Part shown: in pieces, positions 4,475 to 57,010 of the stretch
Layout: each line of letters begins with the position of its first letter
Position numbering within the stretch: the stretch's first letter is position 1
Source: a virus
Length of the DNA: 59,296 nt
IMG/VR virus record: IMGVR_UViG_3300044552_000050
Span: 1 to 59,296 of that record
Reading direction: 5' to 3' (one strand)
Program-made: the position numbers and the translations under genes
Notes under the pieces: generated by a model
Told to the model about the DNA's origin: nothing
The model's input: the letters and a program-made list of their open reading frames with translations, nothing else
Database searches by the model: none

Positions 4475-4493
4475 ACTCACGTGGCGCGTGAGT
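4475..4493 (-). promoter_or_regulatory. ACTCAC-N7-GTGAGT dyad, copy a
   Basis: Sense strand reads TTGACACTCACGCGCCACGTGAGT, ending 13 nt upstream of the endolysin ATG. Confidence 0.6.
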
Positions 4494-4505
4494 GTCAAGG
4501 TGAAA

Positions 4506-4808
4506 TTATGACGTTGTGATTGTAGGTTCAGTGTAGGCCGCGACCTTACCCTCCTTGATGATAAGATTACCCGGGGCGAGCGACAACCATTCGTCCTGAG
4601 TCAGTGCAATTACCTGAGTAATGGACGTGAGCCAGCTTGGTTGTGAGGAATACACGTTAAGGTCAACAAGTCCCGCAACTGGGTATGCGCCAAGCATGGT
4701 CGAGGATGGGAACGCATAATACTGCGCCGGATAGTCGGCTTTCCACCATACTGGCGTCTCTGTGATTGTCAGTGTCGGGATGTCTGCAGTCGTTGTGTCT
4801 GTTGTCAC
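4506..4808 (-). CDS. Hypothetical protein; possible tail-fibre assembly or accessory protein by position
   Basis: 100-aa ORF overlapping the tail-fibre stop by 4 nt. No recognised motif. Confidence 0.5.
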   Translation of the reverse strand: MTTDTTTADIPTLTITETPVWWKADYPAQYYAFPSSTMLGAYPVAGLVDLNVYSSQPSWLTSITQVIALTQDEWLSLAPGNLIIKEGKVAAYTEPTITTS

Positions 4809-6502
4809 GATACGATGCCTTCAACAGTTATGGTCACTAAGAATGGATTTGTGGAGTTTGCACTGCCGTTGATGCAACGGAGTGGCACACTGCTTGTTGT
4901 CGTACCTAGAGATGTTTTTGCCGAGTTCAGACCAACCACGATACTAGCGGCAGCCCCTGATGACAGATCAATGCTTCCCAACCCAATAACATTCGGTACA
5001 GAAGCGAATGTTATTGGGAAAGAGGCTATCACATTGCCGCTGCTGTCAGGTGTGACTTTAAACTGAAACGTCTGTCGTAGAACACTGCGCCCGGTTCCGT
5101 CATTCATAGGCGTCTTGGTGTACGTTCCGCCTGAGATTACGCCAGCGGTGGTCAGTTCGGACGTAAGCGCCGTAGTCCCTGCGGCACTAACAATTCGGCT
5201 TCCTGTAGTGAAATTCCAATAAAATGTATTCCCAGCACTCGTTAAAAACAGAACACCAGACGCGCTAACTCCGTTGGTTTCTTGGGCGTATAGTTGGAAC
5301 CTTGTGGTCGCGTCGGCCTGGGAAACTACGGCAGGTCCATAGTTTGTTTGCCCTGGAGTGCTGGCCGGATTAGGGTTAGCCAGTAACAGCGCTGATGACA
5401 TTATATCGCCTGCTTTGTTCACTTTCGTAGCATCAGCAGCTTCTCGTAGCACCGCTTCAGCCGATACAGCATTCGCAATGGCCGTTGTATCAACACTGCT
5501 GTTAAGAATGGAGTTGGGGGCACCCATCACCCCGATGAAATATGCGCCTTCCCCCCACGAGTTTGATGTGTCCATTGCGAGACCATGACGTATTTCGGTC
5601 GCGGCTGCGCGCCATGGCGACGTAACAGACAGCCCGAAATACGTCATGGTCGTGGCGCCGATGTTCGACCCATATATGCCAATGGCAGCAGTTCCAGAAG
5701 TCTGTGACGTATCGCACACCAGAAACGCATACTCAGTACCGGCAGAAAGAACGACAACACTGCTGAATACAAACATGACTTCGGCAGCCGTAGCAGCAGC
5801 ACTTGCCGTGTATTCTGCCGTTGCGACAATGGTATTAACACTGTGGTCGGTGTTCAGTGTCGTAATAGCCAGCTTGTATGTATGGTTCGCTATCAGGTCG
5901 AGCAGGAGTCCCACACCTTTCACGGTGTAGTCCTCTGCACCTACAGTGAGAACGACGCCCTTCAGATTGTAGCTACTGGTAGACTGCGAACGGTCTGTAT
6001 CAGTCGGTATCGAAAACACGTAGGGTGACAGATAGCCTGTCATGGACGCCGACCAAGACAATACGCCGGTCTTGTCCACCGTGAGACCTGTGCCTACTTT
6101 CACGCCGCCGAGTGTACTGGCTGTTGCGGCAGGCAGTGTGTAATCGCTCCCGCTTCCACCACCCGAAGAAATCACCGTCCACGCGCTGCCGTCGAACTTA
6201 TAAAAAGCACTCTTGGACGCCACGTAAAACTGGAAACCAGCCTGCGCGGTAAAGTAGGACCATGCAGCGTTATCGTATGCAGCAATGGAATTGGCGTTCG
6301 CTGTCGCGGATGCCGAAAGCAGGTAAACATCACCCTGCGCCGGGGACGCGGGCACAGCATCGACAATATCGAGGGCGCGCGCCTGCGTGAAAACCGAAAT
6401 CGCAAGCCAGTTGGCGTTTACGCCGTCAGCCCATCCATCTTCACCAGCGGTCCAGCCGCCAGTGATACCAAGACCCGGTAACGCTCTGCTTGTTGTGGTC
6501 AT
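4805..6502 (-). CDS. Tail fibre protein (DUF2793-like N-terminus)
   Basis: N-terminus LPGLGITGGW...WADGVNANWLAISVF...PASPAQGDVYLL...AYDNAAWSYF...FDGSAWTV fits the DUF2793 pattern. Contains the LPAATASTLGGVKVG fibre motif and an Ala/Ser/Thr/Gly-rich body. Last large gene of the tail module. Confidence 0.7.
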   Translation of the reverse strand: MTTTSRALPGLGITGGWTAGEDGWADGVNANWLAISVFTQARALDIVDAVPASPAQGDVYLLSASATANANSIAAYDNAAWSYFTAQAGFQFYVASKSAFYKFDGSAWTVISSGGGSGSDYTLPAATASTLGGVKVGTGLTVDKTGVLSWSASMTGYLSPYVFSIPTDTDRSQSTSSYNLKGVVLTVGAEDYTVKGVGLLLDLIANHTYKLAITTLNTDHSVNTIVATAEYTASAAATAAEVMFVFSSVVVLSAGTEYAFLVCDTSQTSGTAAIGIYGSNIGATTMTYFGLSVTSPWRAAATEIRHGLAMDTSNSWGEGAYFIGVMGAPNSILNSSVDTTAIANAVSAEAVLREAADATKVNKAGDIMSSALLLANPNPASTPGQTNYGPAVVSQADATTRFQLYAQETNGVSASGVLFLTSAGNTFYWNFTTGSRIVSAAGTTALTSELTTAGVISGGTYTKTPMNDGTGRSVLRQTFQFKVTPDSSGNVIASFPITFASVPNVIGLGSIDLSSGAAASIVVGLNSAKTSLGTTTSSVPLRCINGSANSTNPFLVTITVEGIVS

Positions 6503-6505
6503 GTG

Positions 6506-9319: not shown

Positions 9320-9544
9320 TCAGACCTTCTCTTTGAAGCGGTTTATCTGGTTGTCCCACCAACCGAGGCAGTTGGGCGACTTGACGATCACGGACCCGGC
9401 TATCACGGGCATGGGCATGCCTGACTGAGCGGTTGGACCAGACGCCGCCGACGCTGACGTTGATGGCGGTTTAGGCATCAACAGCAGGGATGCTGCCATC
9501 ATAGCCACGGCAATTACAACCATGATAATCATTGCGATGGGCAT
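9320..9544 (-). CDS. Small membrane-anchored tail protein (gpI C-terminus-like, or the N-terminus of fused J-type proteins)
   Basis: MPIAMIIMVVIAVAMMAASLLLMPKPP...MPMPVIAGSVIVKSPNCLGWWD. A hydrophobic N-terminus followed by a pattern like the start of GTA g15. Confidence 0.45.
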   Translation of the reverse strand: MPIAMIIMVVIAVAMMAASLLLMPKPPSTSASAASGPTAQSGMPMPVIAGSVIVKSPNCLGWWDNQINRFKEKV

Positions 9545-10482
9545 AGCGGACTCCTTGCGCGGAACAGACCTTCCAGCCAAGTTGCAAGCCGGTTTTCTGA
9601 GTGTGGTGAAACCGTGATGCCGAGGCTGTCGCAGACAAACATCACGGTTTCAATGGGATCGGTGCTAAGGCTGTCCGTTGCCACGGTGATATGCGCGTCA
9701 ATGTCAGCGGAATGGTCGTAATTCCAAACCTGCCGAAAATCGTCCAATGTCCCGCACGAAGGATTTATGACGCGCATGGTGGCATAGAATTTTCTGATGC
9801 AGGTTTCAGGGTCGCGGACCATCTGAATGAACGTCGCATCAGGGTAAACCTCCCTTAGATCGTCCATATGGAACTGGTGCCAGTTGTCACGCAGGACCAT
9901 TCGGCTGCCGGGCCGGTAATAATCCCATTCCTCCAGAAGCCTGCGATGGTAACGGAGCGCTGGCCGCATGTCCTGCTCCAGCCACCTGCTGAAATAGGTC
10001 TGCCAGTTGAACATCGTTCCCCATACCGGCGACCAGAAGGTGTTTGTCATTATTTCGCTGTCAGATGCGCCAGAAAGCGGTGAGCGGCCACCTACCAACA
10101 TGGCACCGACTTTTGCGCTTATGGCGTTGTGGGCTGCCTCACGGGCCGTCCTGATGCGCCGTATGTCGTCCATCGGGTTTGCATGCCGTGGAGGTGCCTG
10201 ATAGCGCGCCTCCCACGTCTCAGGCACCCGAATGCCGTCAATCTGAGCAAGTGCGTTCTGTAGAAACGAACCACCTGAGCGCGGCATGCCGATTATAAAC
10301 ACCGGGCGCGTAAGTGTGCCACGCGGTCGGTTCTCACGCATAACGTGAGTCCGGGCCTGAAGAACATTGTCCATAGCCACGCGCAGTGACTTTTCGGAGT
10401 TTTGCTCGTTCAGCGCGCGCATGCCCGCGATTTCATATTCACCGAGTTGCGCGCGTTCTTTATATCGGTCGATCAGTTTCAT
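9529..10482 (-). CDS. Sulfotransferase-family protein (PAPS-dependent type)
   Basis: PVFIIGMPRSGGSFLQNAL (5'-PSB P-loop-like) and MVRDPETCIRKFY (RDP, 3'-PB-like). The ATG at 10482 overlaps the upstream stop as TGATG. The full ORF extends to 10530. Confidence 0.65.
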   Translation of the reverse strand: MKLIDRYKERAQLGEYEIAGMRALNEQNSEKSLRVAMDNVLQARTHVMRENRPRGTLTRPVFIIGMPRSGGSFLQNALAQIDGIRVPETWEARYQAPPRHANPMDDIRRIRTAREAAHNAISAKVGAMLVGGRSPLSGASDSEIMTNTFWSPVWGTMFNWQTYFSRWLEQDMRPALRYHRRLLEEWDYYRPGSRMVLRDNWHQFHMDDLREVYPDATFIQMVRDPETCIRKFYATMRVINPSCGTLDDFRQVWNYDHSADIDAHITVATDSLSTDPIETVMFVCDSLGITVSPHSENRLATWLEGLFRARSPLCPSQ

Positions 10483-20426: not shown

Positions 20427-20445
20427 AATCACGTTATACGTGAGT
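20427..20445 (-). promoter_or_regulatory. ACTCAC-N7-GTGATT dyad, copy b
   Basis: Sense strand reads GAGACTCACGTATAACGTGATT, upstream of the major tail gene. Confidence 0.6.
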
Positions 20446-22742: not shown

Positions 22743-22761
22743 ACTCACCTATGAAGTGAGT
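22743..22761 (-). promoter_or_regulatory. ACTCAC-N7-GTGAGT dyad, copy c
   Basis: Sense strand reads AAACTCACTTCATAGGTGAGTTCGATG, directly before the start codon. Confidence 0.6.
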
Positions 22762-29939: not shown

Positions 29940-29958
29940 ACTCACGCTATACGTGAGT
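29940..29958 (-). promoter_or_regulatory. ACTCAC-N7-GTGAGT dyad, copy d
   Basis: Sense strand reads CAACTCACGTATAGCGTGAGTCGTTTTTGC, in the terS-terL gap. Confidence 0.6.
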
Positions 29959-31837: not shown

Positions 31838-31840
31838 TGG
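31817..31840. repeat. 24-bp direct repeat flanking the methyltransferase cassette, copy 2 (xis|MTase junction)
   Basis: See 30721..30744. Confidence 0.85.
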
Positions 31841-32024
31841 TGGCTTCAAGCACCTTTTGCTGCCATGCAGTTATGTCTGCATCAAGCCAGAAAATTATAC
31901 GTGTACCTGGATATTTTCTGCCTGATGGGAAACGTTCTTCTTTAATCATATTGTAAATTTGAGACCTTTTCAGACCAACACGACGGATTACATCCTCCAA
32001 ACGTAGAAAGTTTACTTCTGGCAT
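31830..32024 (-). CDS. AlpA-family excisionase / transcriptional regulator
   Basis: MPEVNFLRLEDVIRRVGLKRSQIYNMIKEERFP matches the AlpA/Xis HTH pattern. Directly downstream of int. Confidence 0.75.
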   Translation of the reverse strand: MPEVNFLRLEDVIRRVGLKRSQIYNMIKEERFPSGRKYPGTRIIFWLDADITAWQQKVLEATNV

Positions 32025-32067
32025 CCACTTACGCACCTTACACGGCAATGATACTCAGTGGATACTA

Positions 32068-32086
32068 ACGCACATATAAAGTGAGT
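32068..32086 (-). promoter_or_regulatory. ACTCAC-N7-GTGCGT dyad, copy e (degenerate)
   Basis: Sense strand reads GAACTCACTTTATATGTGCGT, between the int stop and the xis start. Confidence 0.45.
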
Positions 32087-33262
32087 TCAATCACTCTTCG
32101 GGTGAATTAAGGCATCAGCCCAATCTTGTAGCATTCGCCTGCGCGGCTGCAGGTATGTTGCAGAGTTGTATGCACCACGCACTTTGTTTGCCTCGACATG
32201 GGATAACGCCAACTCAATCCAGTCGTAATCGTAACGGCGCTGTGCTTCATTCAACATCTGCTCATTTGCCCATGTTGAAGCAGTGCTGCGAAAACCATGA
32301 ACTGTTGCTTTTCTATGATAGCCCATACGATGCAGCGCATATAACATCGTGTTTTCAGATATTGCGCCTGTTTTTGACGACCTTGACCAAAATATAAAGT
32401 CATGGCGCGGAGACCGTGGTAGTCTTCTTAATAACTCTTGCGCTTGTAGGCTGAGAGGAATCAAATGCTCTCGACCTGCCTTCATACGTTGTGCTGGAAT
32501 ACGCCACACATCGCCCTGGATTTCTCCCCATCTAGCAAACCTGACTTCATTGGTTCGCGTCCATGTCAAAATCACAAATAGAAGCGCCTCGCGTGTCATT
32601 GGATCGCCGTCATAACTTAGAAGTTTTTCCATAAACGCGCCCATTTCACTGAACAACATGCGTGAGAAATGTTGCGTTTTTCGAGGTCGTGTAACGGCCT
32701 TTTCTAATCTGTAAGACGGGTCGCTCTGTATAAGCCCTGATGCCATAGCCATTGCGGTTATTTCAGCAATATGCTGGCGCGCGCGCTTTAGCATGTCCAA
32801 AGCGCCACGTTCTTCCATTGGTTGTAAAGCAGATAAAATTCGTTTTGGACTTACATCCGTAATACTCAATGGCCCTAAAGCTGGAAGGACATTAGCCTCC
32901 AGACGCCTCCAGACAAGCGCTGCATGAGGTTTTGTTACGTTGACAGACCAGCGCCGGTGCCAGTCTTGGGCACACTCCCCGAATGTAACAGGTCGGACCT
33001 CTTTGCTATCGGGTATAGAAGGGTCTTCGCCAGACTTTAACCGGGCATGCGCCTGATCCCGAAGCCTGCGGGCATCCACGAGGCTTAATTGCGGGTATGT
33101 GCCTAGTGTAAGGGTCTGTTCTTTACCATCAAACCGATAACCCATACGCCATATTCTTGAACCTGAAGGCATCACATGCAGATAGAGCCATCCGCTGTCC
33201 GAGACCTTGCGTGGTCGGAGGCCAGCTTTAAGGTTTCGTATCGCCGTATCTGTCAAAGCCAT
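32087..33262 (-). CDS. int: Tyrosine integrase (P4-type, DUF4102 arm-binding N-terminus)
   Basis: N-terminus LTDTAIRNLK...SGSRIWRMGYRFDGKEQTLTLGTYPQLSLVDAR. Catalytic blocks HGFRSTASTW and ALSHVE...YN. Confidence 0.9.
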   Translation of the reverse strand: MALTDTAIRNLKAGLRPRKVSDSGWLYLHVMPSGSRIWRMGYRFDGKEQTLTLGTYPQLSLVDARRLRDQAHARLKSGEDPSIPDSKEVRPVTFGECAQDWHRRWSVNVTKPHAALVWRRLEANVLPALGPLSITDVSPKRILSALQPMEERGALDMLKRARQHIAEITAMAMASGLIQSDPSYRLEKAVTRPRKTQHFSRMLFSEMGAFMEKLLSYDGDPMTREALLFVILTWTRTNEVRFARWGEIQGDVWRIPAQRMKAGREHLIPLSLQAQELLRRLPRSPRHDFIFWSRSSKTGAISENTMLYALHRMGYHRKATVHGFRSTASTWANEQMLNEAQRRYDYDWIELALSHVEANKVRGAYNSATYLQPRRRMLQDWADALIHPKSD

Positions 33263-33524
33263 CTTCCATTCCTCCCGCGATGAGGTTTGTTTACCCGCAG
33301 ACTTACCCGCAAAAGTTTTGGCTGCCTATAGACGCTAGTGGACACTAGAGGAAATAGAAAGGCAGTTTTCTGCGCTTTCCATGTCATCTATGAACGTCAG
33401 TGGATTGTTATGGATTGTGTGCTGGTGTCCGCGGCGACTTAGGAACAATACTCGTAAGATGTTGATTTCAATTAGTTTGTTTGAAGCGGGTAAGACTAAC
33501 TTACCCGCAAACTTACCCGCAAAC
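33263..33524. other. Candidate attP region with arm-type repeats
   Basis: TTACCCGCA at 33291, 33303, 33501 and 33513, plus an inverted GCGGGTAA at 33486. Central palindrome CTAGTG-GA-CACTAG at 33335..33348. Adjacent to the int start. Confidence 0.55.
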
Positions 33525-34190
33525 TTATTCACTGAACGGGAGTGGGCCGTTGAGGTCTTCTAATTCGTAAACCTCTCTAAGATGTATTTTCACCTTTATC
33601 TGTTGTGAAAGTCTTGAAAAAATGCCCTCGACATTTCCCGCTGGTATTGCGAAAAATCGAAGACTGTTATTTTCAATGACAACAGGGAAAAGAATTTTGT
33701 CTTCGGCCTGCCTTGGAATGTAAAACACCAAGAAATTTGCATGTATGGACGCTCTTGTCGCATACCCCTCAATATCTTCCACGCCCATTCGTAGCTCTAT
33801 ATTCGTGCCCACCTTACCAAAAGGTATGGCTGCATGGCCCTGATTGGTTCGAGCCATGCCCGCCAGTATCAAGGCGCAAGGGTCGGAACTAATCTCACCA
33901 GACCTTAATCCGCCTGTAGCAGAAGACGCGCTTATACCATGCTCTAACCATTCCGGGCTGACATTTAATATCTGAGCAAGCTGCACCATCCTTTTACCTC
34001 GCGGTATAGATAGACCTTCCTGCCATTTGCGGGGAGTTTCGATAGTTATTTTTTCATCAAAATAGGTTTCAAAAAGAGAGACAATTTTTTGCAGCTTACC
34101 GTGCCTGATAGGCGGAATCACATCGGAGTTTTTGCAGGCAGTGTTAAAGCGCGCAGCAAATTGTTCATGCTTAACTTTTTCCTGACTCAC
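33525..34190 (-). CDS. CI-like HTH repressor candidate
   Basis: XRE-type HTH PRKWQEGLSIPRGKRMVQLAQILNVSPEWLEHG. GTG start after AGGAGGG. Lies next to attP/int. AT-rich. Confidence 0.55.
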   Translation of the reverse strand: MSQEKVKHEQFAARFNTACKNSDVIPPIRHGKLQKIVSLFETYFDEKITIETPRKWQEGLSIPRGKRMVQLAQILNVSPEWLEHGISASSATGGLRSGEISSDPCALILAGMARTNQGHAAIPFGKVGTNIELRMGVEDIEGYATRASIHANFLVFYIPRQAEDKILFPVVIENNSLRFFAIPAGNVEGIFSRLSQQIKVKIHLREVYELEDLNGPLPFSE

Positions 34191-34237: not shown

Positions 34238-34280
34238 GTTTACAAGATTTGTCAGGTGTGTTGTTTCACGCAATGAGTGG

Positions 34281-34655
34281 TTATATTAGATCAAAACGAG
34301 AACGAATATCTTTTATGCTTCGTGCTAAAATATAAACCCCGCCTACTTTCTGCCACATTTCTGCGAAAACTCCCTGTTTTTCGCGCTGCGCTCCGGTGAG
34401 TGTTTTCGTCTCAATTACAGTGGGCTTCCTCCCCACTATTCCCACTAGATCGCCAATGCCCGGCAGCCCGAAGCGGATGGGCCGCGCCTTGCGTAGAATC
34501 TTCATCCCCGGCTCGACGCGCACATACTGACCGACTGCGGCCCTGACTGGATCGCCCTGCCATGCCATGCCGGTGTTTTCGCGCCATATAAGAGTGTCGG
34601 GATAGCTGGACACTTCCACGGCAGCATCGTTCATAAACTCCTTTTCGCTGGTCAT
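34281..34655 (-). CDS. VRR-NUC domain nuclease
   Basis: GLPGIGDLVGI...VIETKT..G..REKQ fits the PD-(D/E)xK VRR-NUC pattern. ATGA overlap with the helicase stop. Confidence 0.7.
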   Translation of the reverse strand: MTSEKEFMNDAAVEVSSYPDTLIWRENTGMAWQGDPVRAAVGQYVRVEPGMKILRKARPIRFGLPGIGDLVGIVGRKPTVIETKTLTGAQREKQGVFAEMWQKVGGVYILARSIKDIRSRFDLI

Positions 34656-38278: not shown

Positions 38279-38297
38279 AATCACGTATAAAGTGAGT
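38279..38297 (-). promoter_or_regulatory. ACTCAC-N7-GTGATT dyad, copy f
   Basis: Sense strand reads CAACTCACTTTATACGTGATT, in the 156-nt structured gap upstream of the polymerase gene. Confidence 0.55.
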
Positions 38298-41698: not shown

Positions 41699-41727
41699 TT
41701 GTTACGTTAGAACAATTCACCTATAAC
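41699..41727 (+). promoter_or_regulatory. Candidate sigma70-type promoter for the rightward replication operon
   Basis: TTGTTA-N17-TATAAC. Dyad copy g overlaps the -10/+1 region. Confidence 0.4.
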
Positions 41728-41744
41728 TCACTCAACGAGTGAGT
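41726..41744. promoter_or_regulatory. ACTCAC-N7-GTGAGT dyad, copy g (extends to an 8-3-8 palindrome)
   Basis: ACTCACTCAACGAGTGAGT, in the divergent region between 41668 and 41771. Confidence 0.6.
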
Positions 41745-45242: not shown

Positions 45243-47003
45243 GTGCGATACCGCATCCAAACTCACCCCGAACGTGACTCTCTGCTCACGCCGTTCGGGA
45301 AGGCCACCCTTGATAACCGATACCTGTTGCCGGGCGAAAGCTATCAAGACCTTTTCGCCCGCGTTGCATCCGCTGGCGCATCAAACGCTGAACACGCCAA
45401 GCGCCTGTATGATTACATCAGCCGTCATTGGTTCATGCCTGCCACGCCGGTACTGTCCAACCTCGGCACCACGCGCGGCCTGCCAATTTCGTGCTTCGTG
45501 AACGAGGCGCAGGACGACATGCGCGCCATTGTCGATCTGTGGAACGAAAATACATGGCTGGCCTCGAAAGGCGGCGGCATTGGTTCCTATTGGGGGAACC
45601 TGCGCTCCATTGGCGAGGCCGTAGGGACCAACGGCAAAACATCCGGTGTGATCCCGTTCATTCGTGTGCAGGACAGCCTGACGCTCGCAATCAGCCAGGG
45701 CAGCCTTCGGCGCGGTTCGGCTGCCGTGTACATGCCCATGTGGCACCCTGAGATTGAAGAATTCATCGAAATGCGGCGTCCGACCGGGGGCGACCCGAAC
45801 CGCAAGGCGCTGAACCTGCACCACGGCGTTGCCATCCCCGACGCCTTCATGCGCGCGGTGGAAGCTGACGAAGAATGGGCGCTGCGTTCACCCAAGGATG
45901 ATTCCATTGTCCGCAAGGTCAGCGCGCGCGGCCTGTGGATCAGGTTGCTGACCGCGCGCATGGAGCAGGGCGAACCCTACATTCTGTGGTTGGACGCAGT
46001 TAATGCTGCCGTGCCGTCCTTCCAGAAGGAAGTCGGTCTGTATGTGAAGACCTCTAACCTGTGTTCGGAAATCACGCTTCCGACCGGCAAGGACCAGTAC
46101 GGGTATGAACGCACGGCGGTCTGCTGTCTTTCGTCCCTGAACCTCGAAACTTGGGATCAGTGGTCGGACCATCCGTGGTTCATTCAGGACGTGATGGAAT
46201 TCCTCGACAACGTGTTGCAGGACTTCATTCTCCGCGCACCTGACGACTTCCGCAAGGCTCGGTACGCGGCGCAGCGCGAACGCTCGGTAGGCTTGGGCGT
46301 CATGGGCTTCCATTCCCTGCTCCAGCAGAAGGATGTGCCGTTTGAAAGCGCCATCGCTAAGTCGTGGAACCGGCGCGTGTTCAAGCACATCCGCCAGCGG
46401 GCCGATGGTGCGTCCTTGTATCTGGCTCAGAAGCGCGGTGCATGCCCTGACGCGGCTGACAGAGGGGTTATGGAGCGGTTCGCCAATAAACTCGCTGTGG
46501 CCCCTACAGCGTCCATTTCCATCATCGCAGGCACCACGTCGCCCGGCATCGACCCGATCATGGCGAACGTCACCCTTCAGAAGACGCTCGCAGGCTCGTT
46601 TACTGTACGCAACCGCCACCTGAAGGGTGTCTTGGCAGCGCACGGCATGGACAACGACGAAACATGGTCGTCCATCACGCTGACCAAGGGTAGCGTCCAG
46701 CACCTCGACTTCCTGACCGACCATGAGAAGGCCGTTTACAAGACCTCCTTTGAACTCGACCAGCGGTGGGTTGTCGAACATGCCGCCGACCGCGCGCCGT
46801 TTATCTGTCAGGCGGCAAGCACAAACCTGTTTATCCCTGCCGACGTGCACAAGCGTGACCTGCACCAGATTCACATGCTGGCGTGGAAGAAAGGCGTGAA
46901 GTCGCTTTATTACCTGCGCTCATTGTCGATCCAGCGCGCGGATACCGTCAGCCAGATTGTCGAAAAACCCATTCAGTATGATGAGTGCCTGTCATGTCAG
47001 TAA
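45243..47003 (+). CDS. nrdA: Ribonucleoside-diphosphate reductase alpha subunit (no ATP-cone)
   Basis: Active-site NLCSEITLP and C-terminal CLSC pair. A GTG at 45243 follows GGAG; the ORF track starts at a TTG, 45231. Confidence 0.9.
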   Translation: MRYRIQTHPERDSLLTPFGKATLDNRYLLPGESYQDLFARVASAGASNAEHAKRLYDYISRHWFMPATPVLSNLGTTRGLPISCFVNEAQDDMRAIVDLWNENTWLASKGGGIGSYWGNLRSIGEAVGTNGKTSGVIPFIRVQDSLTLAISQGSLRRGSAAVYMPMWHPEIEEFIEMRRPTGGDPNRKALNLHHGVAIPDAFMRAVEADEEWALRSPKDDSIVRKVSARGLWIRLLTARMEQGEPYILWLDAVNAAVPSFQKEVGLYVKTSNLCSEITLPTGKDQYGYERTAVCCLSSLNLETWDQWSDHPWFIQDVMEFLDNVLQDFILRAPDDFRKARYAAQRERSVGLGVMGFHSLLQQKDVPFESAIAKSWNRRVFKHIRQRADGASLYLAQKRGACPDAADRGVMERFANKLAVAPTASISIIAGTTSPGIDPIMANVTLQKTLAGSFTVRNRHLKGVLAAHGMDNDETWSSITLTKGSVQHLDFLTDHEKAVYKTSFELDQRWVVEHAADRAPFICQAASTNLFIPADVHKRDLHQIHMLAWKKGVKSLYYLRSLSIQRADTVSQIVEKPIQYDECLSCQ

Positions 47004-48800: not shown

Positions 48801-48814
48801 CAGGCAATAAAAAA

Positions 48815-48840
48815 CCCGGCTCATAGGCCGGGCTGTTTTT
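48815..48840. terminator. Bidirectional hairpin terminator (ends the leftward ardA operon)
   Basis: CCCGGC-TCATAG-GCCGGG, with T-runs on both strands. Confidence 0.7.
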
Positions 48841-48865
48841 CGTGGTGTGTTGTTTGGTGCTGGCG

Positions 48866-50740: not shown

Positions 50741-50759
50741 GATCACGTCCGCCGTGAGT
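50741..50759 (-). promoter_or_regulatory. ACTCAC-N7-GTGATC dyad, copy h
   Basis: Sense strand reads GGACTCACGGCGGACGTGATC, upstream of ardA. A further GGACTCAC at 50771 pairs with GTGAGTCC at 50754. Confidence 0.55.
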
Positions 50760-50827
50760 CCAGAAACCACGGACTCACGTTTTCAGTCAACACATAAAAA
50801 ACGAACAAAAAACACAACGGAATCAGG

Positions 50828-50913: not shown

Positions 50914-50971
50914 CCCCGAGGAAATTGACCCCGAGGAAATAGCAACCCGGAGAAATTGACCCCGAGGAAAT
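50914..50971. repeat. Four direct repeats (TTGA)CCCCGAGGAAAT in the early control region
   Basis: CCCCGAGGAAAT at 50914, 50929 and 50960. Variant CCCGGAGAAAT at 50946. Confidence 0.8.
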
Positions 50972-50991
50972 ATGAAAAGGATTGACAGACG

Positions 50992-51010
50992 ACTCACGCG
51001 CTGCGAGTGT
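50992..51010 (+). promoter_or_regulatory. ACTCAC-N7-GAGTGT dyad, copy i, next to a TTGACA box
   Basis: TTGACA (50982-50987) followed by gacgACTCACGCGCTGCGAGTGT. 21 nt upstream of the 51032 ATG. Confidence 0.45.
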
Positions 51011-54948: not shown

Positions 54949-55142
54949 AACCTACACTCGTTATACTTGGACTCGTGTTTCTCGGAATCGCGTGGTGCAT
55001 CACATACCGTGAATCCCTTACTCTGTTTTTCACTGCACTGGTGAACTTCGGAAAACACGTTCGCAGCAAACTCACGTTCGGTGACGGTGTTGCAATCGGG
55101 TTTTCGTGCGCTGCGTTACTCACCTGTTGGGTTATTTCGTGA
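54945..55142 (+). CDS. Small membrane protein
   Basis: MKPTLVILGLVFLGIAWCI...GFSCAALLTCWVIS. Start taken at the ATG at 54945. Confidence 0.5.
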   Translation: MKPTLVILGLVFLGIAWCITYRESLTLFFTALVNFGKHVRSKLTFGDGVAIGFSCAALLTCWVIS

Positions 55143-55228
55143 TGCGCGGAATCACGTATGGAGTGATTTCCGGTTGCGTCTTATGGACACTGATGATATG
55201 CGTAATTCGGTTATTCGCATTACGCTAA
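55142..55228 (+). CDS. 28-aa hydrophobic micro-protein (below the ORF-track cutoff)
   Basis: MRGITYGVISGCVLWTLMICVIRLFALR. Its ATG overlaps the upstream TGA (TGATG). Confidence 0.4.
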   Translation: MRGITYGVISGCVLWTLMICVIRLFALR

Positions 55229-55252: not shown

Positions 55253-55969
55253 ATGGATGCTGATTACGAAATTCCGAACCTGCCGATTCACACGGCGCTG
55301 ATTACCGGCATCACGATGCCACTGCTGCCCGGCATCAAGACGCCTGCTGAACTGCTGGCGCACCATGCACGTGTGTCGTCCACGGCCAACCAGTACAAGC
55401 ACGAAAGCGGTGCGAAACTGATTCGCCGTCTGATCGAACGCAAAGAGCCGTCGCCGCTGGAAATGGTGTCTCTGAACTTCCAGGTTCACACCACACGCGA
55501 CATTGGGCGGCAGATGATCCGTCATCCATCGCTTCGACCACAGGAATTCAGCGGTCGCTATTCCGTAATGGACTACACCCTCTATCTGCGCGAATGCCGG
55601 TTGCAGCATCCCACTGACCGCCAAATGTCCGTTGAACTGGATATGTCCAATCCTGAACACCGAGCATTGGCCGACTGGTGGAAGGATGTACAGGGAGAAC
55701 TTCACGCCCATGCACAGGATATTTATCACGAGGCACTTGGCAAAGGGATCGCCAAAGAGTGCTCCCGTGCTGTGCTGCCCGAGGGTAACACTGGCACGAT
55801 GTTCTATTTCGCGTCCCCTCTGCGTAACTGGTTTTTCTATTGCGCGCAGCGGTCTGAACTGAAGACGCAGAAAGAGCATCGCTCAATCGCCAATTCGATC
55901 TGGCCTCAGATCGTTGAACACTTCCCCATGCTGGCCGATCTGCTGCCTACCGACTCACGCGAGGGGTGA
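55253..55969 (+). CDS. thyX: FAD-dependent thymidylate synthase ThyX-like
   Basis: ThyX signature region IRHPSLRPQEFSGRY (canonical RHRxxxxxxxSxRY). About 240 aa. Confidence 0.75.
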   Translation: MDADYEIPNLPIHTALITGITMPLLPGIKTPAELLAHHARVSSTANQYKHESGAKLIRRLIERKEPSPLEMVSLNFQVHTTRDIGRQMIRHPSLRPQEFSGRYSVMDYTLYLRECRLQHPTDRQMSVELDMSNPEHRALADWWKDVQGELHAHAQDIYHEALGKGIAKECSRAVLPEGNTGTMFYFASPLRNWFFYCAQRSELKTQKEHRSIANSIWPQIVEHFPMLADLLPTDSREG

Positions 55970-55971
55970 TT
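55953..55971 (+). promoter_or_regulatory. ACTCAC-N7-GTGATT junction element, copy j
   Basis: CGACTCACGCGAGGGGTGATTATG spans the thyX stop and the next start. Confidence 0.6.
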
Positions 55972-56190
55972 ATGAAAAACCGGGACTTCAAACAGGTCAA
56001 AAAAGATACAGTCGTAGCGTTTGATGACGCGCGCGATTATGTTTCTGGCATATATACTGTCGTCAGTCGCAGTTCGTTCAGTATATGCCACGCAAAAAGC
56101 AAGCAGACCGGCTCAGTTATATTCTTCGGCAAATTGTCATGGTATAATCGGCGCGGCTTTATTGTTGATGTAGACTCACGCGAGGAGTGA
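55972..56190 (+). CDS. Hypothetical protein
   Basis: ATG immediately after junction element j. 72 aa. Confidence 0.5.
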   Translation: MKNRDFKQVKKDTVVAFDDARDYVSGIYTVVSRSSFSICHAKSKQTGSVIFFGKLSWYNRRGFIVDVDSREE

Positions 56191-56192
56191 CT
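56174..56192 (+). promoter_or_regulatory. ACTCAC-N7-GTGACT junction element, copy k
   Basis: AGACTCACGCGAGGAGTGACTTTG spans a stop and the next start. Confidence 0.6.
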
Positions 56193-56990
56193 TTGGCGTT
56201 TTACAACGACATTGACCCTAACGCCGCGAGGACACTGACGAATCTGATGGCCGAAGGTATCCTGCCATCAGGTATCGTGTCGCAGGCATCTATTCTGGAC
56301 CTGACACCTGATGACCTACGTTTGCACAGACAGGCACATTTCTTTGCTGGCATTGGCGGCTGGCCTTTTGCCCTGCAACTGGCCGGATATGGTGATCTTC
56401 CGTGCTGGACAGGTTCCCCACCCTGTCAGCCATTCTCTGTCGCAGGACAGCAGCGCGGCACGGACGACGAACGCCATCTTGCACCCACCTGGCTCGAACT
56501 TATCAAAGCGGGCAGACCTCCAAGCCTCTTTGGGGAGCAGGTTGCAGACGCTATTAGGCACGGATGGCTCGACGCTCTATTCGATGCACTGGAAGCAGAA
56601 GGTTACACCTGCGGGGCGGCAGTATTGCCAGCTTGTAGCGTCGGCGCGCCGCACGTCCGAAAGCGATTGTTCTTTGGTGCGGTCAGGCTGGCCGACACCG
56701 ACCGTGCAGGACTCCTCGAACAATGGCGGTCCAAGTCAGTTCAATCGGAACACGCTACCTCTGAACACGCTGGTCAAAACTATAGAGCCAATCCGCTTAA
56801 CGGCTTCTGGTCAAACACTGACTGGCTCGGATGCAGGGACGGCAAGTTCCGGCCAGTTGAACCCGGCACACAGCCGTTGGCTGATGGGTTATCCGGCAGA
56901 GTGGGATTATTGCGGGGGTATGGAAACGCAATCGTCCCTCAATTAGCAGCAGTGTTCATTGCGGCTTTTATGGACTCGATTTTATCTTAA
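56187..56990 (+). CDS. DNA (cytosine-5)-methyltransferase
   Basis: FFAGIGGW (motif I), GSPPCQPFSVAG (IV), FGEQV (VI), GAPHVRKRLFF (VIII), GYGNAIVPQ (X). The nested +1-frame ORF 56311..56946 also looks methyltransferase-like (see finding). Confidence 0.85.
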   Translation: MTLAFYNDIDPNAARTLTNLMAEGILPSGIVSQASILDLTPDDLRLHRQAHFFAGIGGWPFALQLAGYGDLPCWTGSPPCQPFSVAGQQRGTDDERHLAPTWLELIKAGRPPSLFGEQVADAIRHGWLDALFDALEAEGYTCGAAVLPACSVGAPHVRKRLFFGAVRLADTDRAGLLEQWRSKSVQSEHATSEHAGQNYRANPLNGFWSNTDWLGCRDGKFRPVEPGTQPLADGLSGRVGLLRGYGNAIVPQLAAVFIAAFMDSILS

Positions 56991-56991
56991 A

Positions 56992-57010
56992 ACTCACGCG
57001 AGGTGTGATT
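56992..57010 (+). promoter_or_regulatory. ACTCAC-N7-GTGATT junction element, copy l
   Basis: AAACTCACGCGAGGTGTGATTATG, directly before the 57011 ATG. Confidence 0.6.

What the first reader, a model, noticed from the sequence alone, without database searches (positions are those of the whole stretch)
4475..57010. Dispersed 19-bp element ACTCAC-N7-GTGAGT: twelve copies, all at module boundaries and all co-oriented with the downstream gene
Copies, written on the sense strand of the downstream gene:
- 4475 ACTCAC GCGCCAC GTGAGT (before the endolysin)
- 20427 ACTCAC GTATAAC GTGATT (before the major tail gene)
- 22743 ACTCAC TTCATAG GTGAGT (after the capsid gene, 3 nt before an ATG)
- 29940 ACTCAC GTATAGC GTGAGT (terS-terL gap)
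- 32068 ACTCAC TTTATAT GTGCGT (int-xis gap)
- 38279 ACTCAC TTTATAC GTGATT (before the polymerase)
- 41726 ACTCAC TCGTTGA GTGAGT (divergent replication promoters, overlapping a TTGTTA-N17-TATAAC promoter)
- 50741 ACTCAC GGCGGAC GTGATC (before ardA)
- 50992 ACTCAC GCGCTGC GAGTGT (before the rightward early operon)
- 55953, 56174 and 56992 (the three junction copies)

This genome has very few non-coding gaps, and almost every sizeable gap holds one copy. The left arm is invariant and the right arm is degenerate. The invariant arm is always 5' on the coding strand.

Several copies include GANTC (GACTC/GAGTC), the CcrM-type methylation site. The spacer is often TATA-rich.

Candidate functions:
- operator for a dimeric phage regulator;
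- a phage-specific promoter or anti-termination element;
- an RNA hairpin or processing site;
- a recombination boundary sequence.
Basis: partly seen in the sequence, partly recalled or inferred. Interest (0 to 1): 0.7.

Follow-up and report, generated by a model that had tools for sequence, protein, structure and literature searches.

The report
Dispersed repressor-operator sites in a phage
A 19-base palindrome scattered about 15 times through this temperate phage genome is most likely the binding site of the phage's own CI-type repressor, letting one protein silence many transcription units at once; related phages have the same system, which has not been described before.

Summary
The element is real. 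ACTCAC-N7-GTGAGT (2 or fewer mismatches) occurs 17 times against 1.8 expected. There are 14 loci with a perfect ACTCAC arm, and all 10 asymmetric ones point with transcription.

Best reading: a multi-copy operator for the CI-type HTH protein at 33525-34190.
- Arm sequence is conserved, not pairing (arms 3%, spacers 21%, flanks 11% divergence in relatives).
- Paired sites are helically phased (21 and 32 bp).
- Copies overlap the early divergent promoters.
- The motif core is enriched in every relative carrying the lysogeny module, and absent from the one close relative lacking it, which keeps the promoter hexamers and neighbouring hairpins.
- The protein's family (HTH_3) co-occurs with TCAC-N7-GTGA sites at homologous positions in five distant lineages, including isolated temperate Rhodobacter phage RcPescado.
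- Its nearest solved homologue, TP901-1 CI, binds a 19-bp dyad with half-site AGTTCACG.

RNA-hairpin and promoter readings fail their tests. One cassette indel (orf74) is bounded exactly by two copies, so the sites also act as recombination joints. Binding and roadblock action are inferred, not shown. This is a new member of the P1/L5-type dispersed-operator class.

The parts
4475..4493 (-). Copy, perfect palindrome ACTCACGCGCCACGTGAGT. Lies 11 nt upstream of the endolysin ATG (4463). A TTGACA hexamer overlaps its first base.
10332..10350 (-). Intragenic copy ACTCACGTTATGCGTGAGA, about 150 nt inside the gene 9529-10482 (P-loop, sulfotransferase-like), immediately downstream of the gpI-like tail assembly gene. 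RcPescado has a copy just after its gpI-like gene.
20427..20445 (-). Copy ACTCACGTATAACGTGATT in the tail-terminator | major-tail gap, 27 nt upstream of the ATG. Position and TATAA spacer are conserved in RcPescado (31247) and DSS3-P1 (32811).
22743..22761 (-). Copy, perfect palindrome ACTCACTTCATAGGTGAGT. Lies after the capsid gene and a hairpin, 3 nt upstream of the next ATG.
29940..29958 (-). Copy, perfect palindrome ACTCACGTATAGCGTGAGT in the terS | terL gap, 26 nt upstream of the terL ATG (29913).
32068..32086 (-). Copy ACTCACTTTATATGTGCGT at the int | xis junction. A TCAC-N7-GTGA-type site at this junction is found in L014, L002, L004, L007, L010 and RcPescado.
32089..32107 (-). Second junction site ATTCACCCGAAGAGTGATT in the last codons of int, 21 bp (two helical turns) from 32068. 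The same pair and spacing occur in L014.
34264..34282 (-). Degenerate copy (sense AACCACTCATTGCGTGAAA) about 75 nt upstream of the CI-like gene; possible autoregulatory site. Relatives have sites at the same place (L013/L018, L017, L028, L029, RcPescado 17315).
38279..38297 (-). Copy ACTCACTTTATACGTGATT, 100 nt upstream of the DNA polymerase gene, immediately after a terminator-like hairpin. Retained in L018. L028 and L029 show the same hairpin-then-motif arrangement. In L019 the hairpins are kept but the motif is absent.
41726..41744 (.). Perfect palindrome ACTCACTCAACGAGTGAGT in the divergent early region. It starts inside the -10 of the rightward TTGTTA-17-TATAAC site (41699-41727) and fills the spacer of the leftward TTGGAC-17-TATAGG site (41748-41720).
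45261..45279 (+). Copy ACTCACCCCGAACGTGACT, 18 nt inside the RNR large-subunit gene (likely GTG start at 45243). RcPescado has a site just before its RNR gene (13526).
50741..50759 (-). Copy ACTCACGGCGGACGTGATC, 35 nt upstream of the ardA ATG.
50773..50791 (+). Half or weak copy ACTCACGTTTTCAGTCAAC, 32 bp from 50741. Overlaps a TTGACT hexamer on the ardA strand.
50992..51010 (+). Weak copy ACTCACGCGCTGCGAGTGT. Fills the spacer and -10 of a TTGACA-17-GAGTGT site (50982-51010), 21 nt upstream of the first ATG of the rightward early operon.
55118..55168 (+). Pair of weaker sites, ACTCACCTGTTGGGTTATT (55118) and AATCACGTATGGAGTGATT (55150), 32 bp apart, upstream of thyX. 55150 is retained in L024.
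55953..55971 (+). Junction copy ACTCACGCGAGGGGTGATT. The thyX stop codon (TGA) is in the right arm, GAGG (SD-like) is in the spacer, and the orf74 ATG follows directly. Left boundary of the orf74 indel.
56174..56192 (+). Junction copy ACTCACGCGAGGAGTGACT. Right boundary of the orf74 indel, immediately before the C5-methylase gene.
56992..57010 (+). Junction copy ACTCACGCGAGGTGTGATT between the methylase and the nucleotidyltransferase-like gene; the ATG follows directly. Retained in L024 with one spacer change.
33525..34190 (-). Candidate cognate factor. 221-aa CI-type protein: N-terminal XRE/HTH_3 domain (recognition helix ETPRKW), flexible linker, beta-rich C-terminal domain. Located helicase - CI-like - attP - int - xis, as in RcPescado gene 19.
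31830..33521 (-). Rest of the lysogeny module that travels with the motif: xis (AlpA family, 31830-32048), P4-type tyrosine integrase (32087-33262), and probable attP with four YTTACCCGCA arm-type repeats (33290-33521).

Best explanation
The 19-bp dyad ACTCAC(G)-N5-(C)GTGAKT is the DNA operator of a phage-encoded dimeric helix-turn-helix repressor, most likely the 221-aa CI-type protein at 33525-34190.

In a lysogen, the repressor would occupy about 15 sites:
- At the early divergent promoters (41726; 50741, 50773 and 50992) the sites overlap the -35, spacer, -10 or start region, so they would block initiation.
- At the int|xis junction, and inside the long replication, nucleotide-metabolism and late operons, they would either shut local promoters or act as roadblocks to read-through transcription, as stoperators do in L5. 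This would keep xis, late genes and accessory cassettes silent.
- A weak site upstream of the repressor gene would give autoregulation.

Because the site is the only sequence shared between otherwise unrelated gene cassettes, it also serves as a joint for recombination.

Shown: enrichment, placement and polarity of the sites; arm-specific conservation; association with the lysogeny module; co-occurrence with the CI-like family.

Inferred: that this protein binds the sites; that binding represses; and that intra-operon copies block elongation.
For: 1. It is a sequence-specific DNA-level site.
- In five copies homologous between the window and 83-92% relatives, arms differ at 2 of 60 positions, spacers at 6 of 28 and flanks at 33 of 300.
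- Arm mismatches are never compensated.
- The TCAC/GTGA cores are 11 bp apart centre to centre, which is one helical turn.
- Paired sites are spaced 21, 32 and 32 bp, and the 21-bp pair is conserved in L014.

2. Copies sit in operator positions.
- 41726 overlaps both divergent early promoter-like sites.
- RcPescado has sites in the spacer of TTGTCA-17-TATCAA, at about +3 of the opposing promoter, and in the spacer of TTGACT-17-TATCTG upstream of gene 19.

3. The motif is an add-on linked to lysogeny.
- TCAC-N7-GTGA is enriched in every locus that carries int/xis (P from 1e-6 to 3e-2) and in none without them.
- L019 plus L025 (one non-temperate relative; TerL 70%, primase 50%) keep TTGTAT-17-TATACC and the hairpins upstream of pol, but have no copy in 32.8 kb.

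4. Link to the CI-like family.
- 37 of 57 aligned members hit Pfam HTH_3. The profile hits TP901-1 CI, P22 C2 and 434 repressor.
- The model (pLDDT 90) has an N-terminal domain that superposes on P22 C2 and TP901-1 CI.
- Family members only 24-30% identical (RcPescado gp19, DSS3-P1 gp65, P0041/L028, P0042/L029) sit in the same gene context. Their genomes carry TCAC-N7-GTGA-type dyads at homologous positions: the divergent early gap, after the hairpin before pol, upstream of the CI-like gene, int|xis, and before the major tail gene.
- In RcPescado, CAC-N7-GTG occurs 51 times against 22 expected, with 18 in the 6.8% of non-coding DNA (odds ratio 7.5, p=3e-9).

5. The nearest solved homologue, TP901-1 CI, binds as a dimer to the 19-bp dyad AGTTCATGAAACGTGAACT, with half-site AGTTCACG.

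6. The window lineage's unique recognition helix ETPRKW (others have E-x-V/I-RKW) coincides with its CTCAC half-site, against WTCAC elsewhere.

7. orf97 and orf176, the other local candidates, have homologues in motif-free L019.
Against: - There are no binding or expression data of any kind.
- The association with lysogeny does not single out the CI-like protein, because int, xis and an N6/N4 methylase are missing from L019 as well.
- In the RcPescado record the label 'immunity repressor' is on a different small gene (gene 78), which has no homologue in the window.
- A symmetric dimer does not by itself explain why the perfect arm is always upstream.
- Four copies abut start codons (0-3 nt), three of them with an SD-like GAGG spacer. 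The 'major tail' site keeps a TATAA spacer in three distant phages. Some copies may therefore carry extra roles.
- DSS3-P1 has a family member but only three intergenic sites.
- The repressor gene is 7.5 kb from the early divergent promoters, unlike classical CI/Cro switches.
- The C-terminal domain has no confident structural match.
Confidence: 0.6

Rival explanations
1. The dyad is a protein-binding DNA site, but the factor is another product of the lysogeny module (the AlpA-family Xis, or Int) or an unidentified phage or host regulator. It could act as an activator or excision-linked switch rather than as the immunity repressor.
For: The single most widely conserved position is immediately upstream of xis. 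Xis and Int are absent from motif-free L019, just as the CI-like gene is. I could not determine whether the Sphingomonas-type prophages that share the core motif encode a CI-like homologue. PHROGs annotates this Xis family as 'excisionase and transcriptional regulator'.
Against: Small AlpA/Xis proteins are monomeric winged-helix proteins that usually bind direct repeats near attP (my own knowledge). A dyad with cores one helical turn apart fits a dimeric HTH. L028 shows sites around a CI-like gene with no xis in the 15.8-kb locus. The CI-like family has an HTH homologous to TP901-1 CI, whose half-site is similar. Sites flank or precede the CI-like gene itself in five lineages.
Confidence: 0.15
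2. The element acts at the RNA level, as a 6-7-bp hairpin in polycistronic mRNA. It would serve as a processing or stability signal, or as a translational operator next to ribosome-binding sites.
For: The element is co-oriented with transcription. It lies 0-35 nt upstream of start codons for most copies, and three copies have GAGG in the would-be loop. The perfect palindromes fold at -7 to -9.5 kcal/mol.
Against: - About half of the copies fold at only -2 to -4 kcal/mol, and 7 of 15 lose the hairpin in +/-20 nt of context.
- Mismatches (C.U, C.C, U.C) are not wobble-compatible on either strand, and none is compensated. Arm sequence, not pairing, is what is conserved.
- The GAGG spacer is lost in L024 while the arms stay.
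- Distance to the start codon ranges from 0 to 100 nt, and two copies are inside genes.
- One copy sits between divergent promoters and would be read on both strands.
- There is no Rfam match.
- An RNA element would not be expected to vanish together with the lysogeny module.
Confidence: 0.07
3. The element is a phage-specific promoter or initiation signal, read by host RNA polymerase with a phage factor, which would explain its directionality and its position upstream of genes.
For: Directionality. Many copies, here and in RcPescado, lie 20-35 nt upstream of SD+ATG. Several late-region spacers contain TATA-like hexamers, and the 'major tail' site keeps TATAA in three phages. TTGACA-like hexamers lie next to three copies.
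Against: - Sigma-70-type consensus sites are not enriched and do not track the motif.
- No fixed -35/-10 geometry exists. The arms are 13 bp apart, not about 23.
- Four copies end 0-3 nt from the start codon, leaving no room for a transcript start.
- No RNA polymerase or sigma factor is encoded in the window.
- L019 keeps the early promoter hexamers but lacks the dyad, so the promoter does not depend on the dyad.
Confidence: 0.06
4. The primary role is recombinational. The dyads would be boundary or joint sequences at which gene cassettes are exchanged between related phages, and any regulatory effect is secondary.
For: - orf74 is present in the window and absent in L024. The indel is bounded to the nucleotide by copies 55953 and 56174, and L024 has a single copy there.
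- In the Sphingomonas-type prophages, cassettes inserted between terL and gpW are each preceded by a copy (L005 5066, 8411, 11033; L003 5459, 5662; L007 12192).
- The C5-methylase cassette sits at different places next to copies in different phages.
Against: - Two 6-bp arms are too short for efficient homologous recombination, and no dedicated recombinase is evident.
- L024's single copy has a different spacer from both window copies, so a simple deletion between them is excluded.
- Many copies are conserved at positions where gene order does not vary across very distant phages, such as before the major tail gene, int|xis and the early promoters.
- Arm-specific purifying selection and helical phasing point to a binding protein.
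- Only one exact indel has been observed.
Confidence: 0.07

Closest known systems
Mycobacteriophage L5 / Cluster A repressor gp71 with its operators and 'stoperators'
   Same: One short repressor site is repeated more than 10-20 times through a temperate phage genome. Copies lie at early promoters and in short intergenic gaps inside operons. Orientation tracks the direction of transcription, and orientation is required for function in L5 (PMC9283540). The proposed role is prophage-wide silencing.
   Different: L5 sites are 13-bp and fully asymmetric, and are bound by a monomer using two domains. Here the site is a 19-bp dyad whose asymmetry is only a polar degeneracy of the downstream arm, and the candidate protein is a CI/XRE-type HTH. 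Binding and elongation block are experimentally shown for L5 and not here.
Phage P1 C1 repressor and its 22 dispersed operators
   Same: A temperate phage of Gram-negative hosts in which a single repressor controls many scattered transcription units through dispersed copies of one operator (PMC8546580).
   Different: P1 operators are asymmetric 17-mers (ATTGCTCTAATAAATTT) and C1 is unrelated. P1 operators are promoter-associated, not placed at gene junctions inside operons.
Lactococcal phage TP901-1 CI repressor and its O_R, O_L and O_D operators
   Same: It is the best-scoring solved homologue of the HTH domain (profile E=1.7e-5; structural superposition). The operator is a 19-bp dyad bound by one dimer, and the half-site AGTTCACG shares TCACG with ACTCACG.
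   Different: TP901-1 has only three operators, clustered at the cI/mor switch. Its TCACG cores lie 1 bp closer to the dyad centre on each side. Its C-terminal domain is a helical hook that forms hexamers; here it is a beta-rich domain of uncertain fold. The repressor gene here is 7.5 kb from the early divergent promoters.
Cluster O mycobacteriophage 17-bp dyad repeats (TGTTCGG-N3-CCGAACA, 34 copies in Corndog)
   Same: A dyad-symmetric short repeat dispersed through the genome, many copies between genes and about a third within genes. It is predicted to be bound by a dimeric DNA-binding protein, and most copies are not at promoters (PMC4351075).
   Different: There is no orientation bias, the phages are not evidently temperate, and no candidate binding protein or conserved positions are reported. 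Function is unknown.
Cluster K mycobacteriophage start-associated sequences, and the T1/Stevie 22-bp intergenic repeat
   Same: Short conserved motifs placed just upstream of start codons or between genes and oriented with transcription (mentioned in PMC4351075; PMC4319613). They resemble the three junction copies that abut ATG.
   Different: Those motifs are asymmetric and, for the start-associated sequences, tightly tied to translation starts. Here the distance to the start codon varies from 0 to 100 nt, and the SD-like spacer is not conserved.

Membership tests
Dispersed repressor operator / stoperator array (L5 gp71 type, P1 C1 type) | One short site repeated more than 10 times across a temperate phage genome, far above chance, mostly in short non-coding gaps | tested here: met
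   14 strong and about 5 weak copies. 17 against 1.84 expected; 14 against 0.87. About 10 lie in the roughly 5% of non-coding DNA. Integrase, xis and attP are present.
Dispersed repressor operator / stoperator array (L5 gp71 type, P1 C1 type) | Sites are asymmetric and their orientation follows the direction of transcription | tested here: inconclusive
   The core is a dyad and 4 copies are perfect palindromes. However, all 10 asymmetric copies have the perfect arm upstream on the sense strand. Polarity is present; full asymmetry is not.
Dispersed repressor operator / stoperator array (L5 gp71 type, P1 C1 type) | Copies occur both at early promoters and inside operons | tested here: met
   41726 and 50992 overlap promoter-like hexamers. 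10332, 20427, 22743, 29940, 45261, 55953, 56174 and 56992 lie within co-directional gene strings. Promoters are predicted, not mapped.
Dispersed repressor operator / stoperator array (L5 gp71 type, P1 C1 type) | Sites are bound by the phage immunity repressor, and bound repressor blocks initiation and elongation | not testable with these tools
   Needs EMSA or ChIP, and reporter or transcript mapping.
CI/XRE-type repressor with dyad operators (TP901-1 CI, P22 C2, 434) | N-terminal five-helix HTH_3 DNA-binding domain | tested here: met
   The window protein alone misses the Pfam threshold. At family level, 37 of 57 members hit HTH_3. The profile hits TP901-1 CI, P22 C2 and 434. The pLDDT-90 model superposes on them with TM 0.65-0.76 normalised to the target.
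CI/XRE-type repressor with dyad operators (TP901-1 CI, P22 C2, 434) | Operator is a dyad with half-site cores about one helical turn apart | tested here: met
   TCAC and GTGA cores are 11 bp apart centre to centre, read directly from the sequence. The site is 19 bp overall, like TP901-1 O_L.
CI/XRE-type repressor with dyad operators (TP901-1 CI, P22 C2, 434) | Two or three operators clustered between divergent repressor and cro/mor genes | tested here: not met
   The CI-like gene is co-directional with the upstream helicase operon and lies 7.5 kb from the divergent early promoters. Sites are dispersed over the whole genome.
CI/XRE-type repressor with dyad operators (TP901-1 CI, P22 C2, 434) | C-terminal domain of a known oligomerisation or autocleavage type (S24 peptidase, helical hook) | tested here: not met
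   No S24 or other Pfam hit. The C-terminal domain is beta-rich and only weakly resembles PD-(D/E)XK dimers, with no hit at E of 1e-3 or better.
Structured RNA element (processing site or translational operator hairpin) | Stable hairpin retained in its sequence context | tested here: not met
   About half of the 19-mers fold at -2 to -4 kcal/mol. 7 of 15 lose the hairpin in +/-20 nt of context.
Structured RNA element (processing site or translational operator hairpin) | Pairing maintained by compensatory or wobble changes | tested here: not met
   Arm mismatches are C.U, C.C or U.C, with none compensated. Arms are conserved in sequence while spacers vary. No Rfam family matches.
Promoter (sigma-70 type or phage-polymerase type) | Fixed -35/-10-like geometry, or a phage RNA polymerase or sigma factor to read it | tested here: not met
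   No enrichment or co-location of consensus sites. No polymerase or sigma gene in the window.
Promoter (sigma-70 type or phage-polymerase type) | Transcript start can lie upstream of the gene's start codon | tested here: not met
   Copies 22743, 55953, 56174 and 56992 end 0-3 nt from the start codon.
Recombination boundary / cassette-joint sequences (lambdoid boundary sequences, T4 PeSL-type) | Gene-content differences between relatives begin and end at the repeats | tested here: inconclusive
   One exact case: the orf74 indel is bounded by 55953 and 56174, and L024 has a single copy there. There are suggestive cassette-leading copies in the Sphingomonas-type prophages. Many copies lie where gene order is invariant. 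The sample is too small for statistics.

The most novel reading that the evidence does not exclude
The dyads form an 'operator-bounded cassette' system. Every exchangeable gene cassette in this phage lineage begins with the repressor's binding site. Recombination at these sites would swap or insert cassettes (orf74, the C5 methylase, the terL-gpW inserts) while placing each newcomer automatically under prophage repression. The polar degeneracy (strong half-site upstream, weak half-site downstream) would be functional, making a dimeric repressor an orientation-dependent roadblock to RNA polymerase. That would be a dyad-site counterpart of the monomeric L5 stoperator mechanism.
Probability: 0.15. 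Interest if true: 0.7.

Novelty: new member of a known kind. Interest (0 to 1): 0.45.

Why it matters
If correct, one protein and one 19-bp site explain how temperate Casjensviridae-like phages keep about 60 kb of co-directional lytic genes silent, including xis lying directly downstream of int. This group includes isolated Rhodobacter and Ruegeria phages.

It gives a ready-made regulon map for these phages (early promoters, xis, tail, lysis and nucleotide-metabolism units). It offers a testable immunity determinant: the ETPRKW recognition helix paired with the CTCAC half-site. It also gives a concrete case in which regulatory sites double as joints for modular exchange.

The system can be tested directly in Rhodobacter capsulatus with RcD-cluster phages, where lysogens exist. 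The array there (at least 18 intergenic sites in RcPescado) is not mentioned in the genome paper.

Tried and rejected
- **P. aeruginosa AlpA-type antitermination.** I considered this because xis is 'AlpA family'. That AlpA is a larger 21Q-like protein with a 6-bp GGGACG element, so it is unrelated.
- **T7-promoter resemblance** (ACTCAC-TATAG). I noted it by eye and dropped it. No phage RNA polymerase is encoded, and most spacers lack the TATAG.
- **Host global-regulator boxes** (CRP, LexA, CtrA, NtrC; from my own knowledge). None has the TCAC-N7-GTGA arrangement, and the outer bases differ between phages.
- **Sigma-70 scans**, **Rfam** and **tRNA**: nothing relevant.
- **GANTC/CcrM link.** The overlap is explained by arm composition.
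- **orf97 (41771-42064) and orf176 as binders.** Both are conserved in motif-free L019.
- **First structure model of the CI-like protein** from 4 sequences: pLDDT 51, discarded.
- **Near-identity DNA searches** against deposited phages and E. coli genomes: no match.
- **Pattern-based locus searches** with the CI-like protein, orf97, the helicase and the CI-like alignment in IMG/VR: no relatives. I therefore could not establish whether the Sphingomonas-type prophages encode a CI-like homologue.
- **P0040 contig:** too short to be useful.
- **De novo palindrome scan of DSS3-P1:** no strongly enriched dyad.

Full report
**What the window is.**
The first 127 nt recur at the end, so the window is a complete, circularly closed phage genome of about 59.17 kb. 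It is a JGI metagenome contig, and a near-identical contig exists in an SRA run.

The structural genes are lambda-like: GpA terminase, gpW, portal, S49 protease, gpD-like and gpE-like capsid proteins. The replication genes are Enc34/Chi-like: Enc34-type SSB, DUF2800 nuclease, primase-polymerase and a helicase. The genome also carries RNR, ThyX, a C5 methylase, ArdA, two N6/N4 methylases, a P4-type integrase and an AlpA-family Xis.

The nearest deposited phages are Casjensviridae, at only 40-48% protein identity. Genes run in four blocks whose direction changes at about 2.5, 41.7, 49.3 and 50.8 kb.

**The observation.**
- The dyad with 2 or fewer mismatches occurs 17 times against 1.84 expected.
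- The core TCAC-N7-GTGA occurs 19 times against about 0.9 expected.
- A strand-specific search for ACTCAC-N7-GNG finds 14 loci against 0.87 expected. Four are perfect palindromes. All ten asymmetric ones carry the perfect arm on the 5' side of the sense strand.

Copy 10332 is inside a gene: that gene starts at ATG 10482, overlapping the upstream stop codon by one base (TGATG), and the copy encodes ...ARTHVMREN.... Copy 45261 is 18 nt inside the RNR gene. Only about 10 of 22 gaps of 25 nt or more carry a copy. Distances from the motif end to the next start codon are 0, 0, 0, 3, 11, 21, 26, 26, 27, 35, 19-43, 84 and 100 nt.

**DNA or RNA?**
Folding gives -7 to -9.5 kcal/mol for the perfect palindromes. 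About half of the copies reach only -2 to -4 kcal/mol, and 7 of 15 hairpins disappear in +/-20 nt of context. The arm mismatches (C.U, C.C, U.C) are not wobble pairs on either strand, and none is compensated.

In five copies that can be aligned between the window and relatives 83-92% identical in neighbouring proteins (L018, L024), the arms differ at 2 of 60 positions, the spacers at 6 of 28 and the +/-30-nt flanks at 33 of 300 (arm against spacer p=0.012). So arm sequence is under selection and spacer sequence is not. The SD-like GAGG spacer of the junction copies is replaced by GTAGCGC in L024 while the arms persist.

Neighbouring sites are spaced 21 bp (32068/32089, and identically in L014) and 32 bp (50741/50773; 55118/55150), which are whole numbers of helical turns. 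The TCAC and GTGA cores lie 11 bp apart. There is no Rfam hit. All of this points to a sequence-specific dimeric DNA-binding protein.

**Not a promoter.**
Sigma-70-type consensus sites are neither enriched nor associated with the copies. No RNA polymerase or sigma factor is encoded. Four copies end 0-3 nt from a start codon.

At the divergent early region, the palindrome begins inside the -10 of TTGTTA-17-TATAAC and fills the spacer of the opposing TTGGAC-17-TATAGG. The relative L019 has TTGTAT-17-TATACC at the same place but no palindrome. The promoter therefore exists without the dyad, and the dyad is placed where a repressor would act.

**Relatives.**
*Close relatives.* L018 (primase 92%) retains the copies homologous to 41726 and 38279, with changed spacers. 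L014 (CI-like protein 64%, Int 66%) has the same double site at int|xis, GATCAC-N7-GTGATT ga ACTCACGCGGAAGGTGAGT.

*Sphingomonas-type prophages and IMG/VR contigs* (TerL 61-64%). These lack ACTCAC but carry AATCAC-N7-GTGATA/T. The site is again at int|xis in L002, L004, L007 and L010, and it sits ahead of cassettes inserted between terL and gpW.

*Association with lysogeny.* Across all loci, the core motif is enriched wherever int/xis are present and not where they are absent. The sharpest contrast is L019 plus L025, two contigs from one sample (TerL 70%, primase 50%, ThyX 58%). The order there is terL-terS-orf-helicase-pol..., with no CI-like gene, int, xis or methylase. In 32.8 kb there is no intergenic copy, although the hairpins upstream of pol and the early promoter hexamers are retained.

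**The candidate factor.**
The 221-aa protein at 33525-34190 lies between the helicase operon and attP/int. Alone it gives only weak PHROG 'transcriptional repressor' hits and no Pfam hit. An exhaustive profile search finds 373 family representatives.
- 37 of 57 aligned members hit Pfam HTH_3.
- The family profile matches the DNA-binding domains of TP901-1 CI (E=1.7e-5), P22 C2 and 434 repressor.
- With the deeper alignment the AlphaFold model reaches pLDDT 90. It shows a helical N-terminal domain that superposes on P22 C2 and TP901-1 CI, a disordered linker, and a beta-rich C-terminal domain that only weakly resembles PD-(D/E)XK dimers.

TP901-1 CI binds as a dimer to the 19-bp dyad AGTTCATGAAACGTGAACT, and its O_R half-site is AGTTCACG. 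That is the same overall length and the same TCAYG core as here, with the cores 1 bp closer to the centre on each side.

**The same pairing in distant phages.**
tblastn finds family members (29-32% identity) in Rhodobacter capsulatus RcD-cluster phages and in Ruegeria phages.

*RcPescado.* This phage is a Casjensviridae member and experimentally temperate (PMC8601537). Its layout is helicase - gene 19 (HTH) - int - excise - methylase - terS - terL. CAC-N7-GTG occurs 51 times against 22 expected, and 18 copies lie in the 6.8% of non-coding DNA (odds ratio 7.5, p=3e-9). Sites fall at positions homologous to the window's:

| Position | RcPescado | Window |
|---|---|---|
| int / xis gap | 19786 | 32068 |
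| Before the major tail gene | 31247 | 20427 |
| Just after the gpI-like gene | 40786 (ACTCACATCTGATGTGATT) | 10332 |
| Before or at RNR | 13526 | 45261 |
| Divergent early gap | about 3540 and 3620 | 41726 |

RcPescado also has a site in the spacer of a promoter-like TTGACT-17-TATCTG just upstream of gene 19.

*DSS3-P1.* It has only three intergenic sites, but two are at the divergent early gap and before the major tail gene.

*L028 and L029.* These two metagenomic lineages carry 24-26%-identical family members. They show the dyad in the divergent gap, after the hairpin upstream of the polymerase operon, and flanking the CI-like gene.

*Other points.* The window lineage's recognition helix reads ETPRKW where the others read E-x-V/I-RKW, matching its CTCAC half-site against WTCAC elsewhere. 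This is a single two-group contrast. The other local candidates, orf97 and orf176, are conserved in motif-free L019.

**Recombination.**
L024 (ThyX 83%, same sample as L013) has ThyX followed directly by the methylase, with one copy, ACTCACGTAGCGCGTGACC, at the junction. In the window, orf74 sits between copies 55953 and 56174. The sequence left of 55953 and right of 56174 matches the flanks of the single L024 copy. The indel is therefore bounded exactly by the dyads.

The differing spacer rules out a simple deletion between the two window copies. Together with the cassette-leading copies in the Sphingomonas-type prophages and the wandering C5-methylase cassette, this supports a secondary role as recombination joints. 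However, many copies lie at positions where gene order never varies.

**How it most likely works.**
*Shown:* a conserved, polar, helically phased dyad that travels with the lysogeny module and with one HTH family, and that sits on early promoters, at int|xis and at gene junctions.

*Inferred:* the CI-type protein binds it as a dimer. It represses the early promoters by occlusion and autoregulates through a weak site at 34264. At intra-operon copies it either shuts internal promoters or blocks read-through. Read-through from int into xis and the late genes is an obvious problem here, because int, xis, terS, terL and the late genes are all co-directional.

The upstream-strong, downstream-weak polarity recalls the orientation dependence of L5 stoperators, but its mechanism is unknown.

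**Comparison and novelty.**
Dispersed operator arrays are known from P1 (22 asymmetric C1 operators) and from Cluster A mycobacteriophages. Dispersed dyad repeats of unknown function are known from Cluster O mycobacteriophages.

I found no description of this array in papers on RcD phages or roseophages. It is a new member of that kind, in a different phage family. It has a different repressor family and a dyad rather than an asymmetric site.

**Uncertainties.**
- There are no binding or expression data.
- The association does not separate the CI-like protein from Xis or Int.
- The RcPescado record labels another gene (78) as the immunity repressor.
- The host is unknown. The relatives, a GapR-like gene and GANTC depletion all point to Alphaproteobacteria.

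Noticed in passing
window 1-127 and 59170-59296: The first 127 nt are repeated exactly at the end of the window. The contig is therefore a circularly closed (or terminally redundant) complete genome of about 59.17 kb.
   Followed up: yes
window 44722-45001: A 280-nt non-coding, very AT-rich stretch. It is flanked by iterons GGAGCMTATGG (44812-44831) on one side and three CCATAGCAG copies (44933-44972) in inverse orientation on the other. It looks like a replication origin between the primase operon and RNR. L019 has an analogous iteron region (TGATTCA repeats).
   Followed up: no
window 48386-48841: A 456-nt non-coding region closed at both ends by strong bidirectional terminator hairpins (48408-48429, 48813-48834). 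It contains four GATGCACKGA repeats (48682-48794) and long AT-rich palindromes (ATGTTATGTTATACTATAACA...). A similar region exists in L019 (17444-17868). It may be a cos/pac, partition or second origin region.
   Followed up: no
window 50915-50985: Direct repeats GACCCCGAGGAAAT (exact at 50927 and 50958, plus degenerate copies) immediately upstream of the TTGACA hexamer of the rightward early promoter. They may be binding sites for a second regulator.
   Followed up: no
window 34195-34236: A 9-bp-stem inverted repeat, CCCTCCTAT...ATAGGAGGG, whose 3' arm is the Shine-Dalgarno sequence of the CI-like gene. It is partly conserved in L013 and L018. It may provide translational control of the repressor.
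   Followed up: no
window 33290-33521: Four YTTACCCGCA repeats in two pairs (33290, 33302; 33500, 33512) flank the 'orf65' region between the CI-like gene and int. L014 has similar TGCGGGTAA repeats. This is probably attP with integrase arm-type sites, so orf65 may not be a gene. No tRNA fragment was detected.
   Followed up: partly
window about 38207-38330; L019 6838-6955: Two hairpins upstream of the DNA polymerase gene are conserved as structures between the window and L019. The 12-bp stem GAAATCCGACAA/TTGTCGGATTTC becomes GAAACCCGGCAA/TTGCCGGGTTTC, with two compensatory pairs. This suggests a genuine RNA or terminator element there, independent of the dyad motif.
   Followed up: partly
whole window: GANTC is under-represented (151 sites against 229 +/- 15 expected), and the phage carries two N6/N4 methylases plus a C5 methylase and ArdA. 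This is consistent with pressure from GANTC-specific restriction or methylation in an alphaproteobacterial host.
   Followed up: partly
window 9529-10482: A gene with a sulfotransferase-like P-loop (PVFIIGMPRSGG) is inserted in the tail module just after the gpI-like tail assembly gene. Its ATG overlaps the upstream stop codon by one base (TGATG). It looks like a moron and contains the intragenic motif copy.
   Followed up: partly
window 33525-34190 (C-terminal half of the protein): The confident AlphaFold model of the CI-like protein has a beta-rich C-terminal domain. Its best, though weak, structural matches are PD-(D/E)XK-fold dimers (I-Ssp6803I, Hjc resolvases). A nuclease-fold oligomerisation domain would be unusual for a phage repressor.
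   Followed up: partly
RcPescado MW677521 (L020+L021), whole genome: This isolated, experimentally temperate Rhodobacter phage carries at least 18 intergenic CAC-N7-GTG dyads (often CACGTCTGATGTG), typically 20-35 nt upstream of start codons. The repeat is not mentioned in the cluster's genome paper.
   Followed up: yes
L026 7768-8256 and L027 2976-3464: Related contigs encode a 162-aa Sigma70_r2 (ECF-like) protein between the dNMP kinase and a GapR-like DNA-binding protein. The window has no counterpart, although its 728-1237 ORF corresponds to the GapR-like gene.
   Followed up: partly
L019 13281-16073: The RNR large-subunit gene of the motif-free relative is 930 aa with a LAGLIDADG insertion (intein or homing endonuclease). 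The insertion is absent from the window's 590-aa RNR.
   Followed up: no
window 20427, RcPescado 31247, DSS3-P1 32811: The dyad before the major tail gene keeps a TATAA-containing spacer (GTATAAC, GATATAA, CTATAAG) in three very distant phages, although spacers elsewhere are free to vary. A -10-like element may be embedded in this particular operator.
   Followed up: partly
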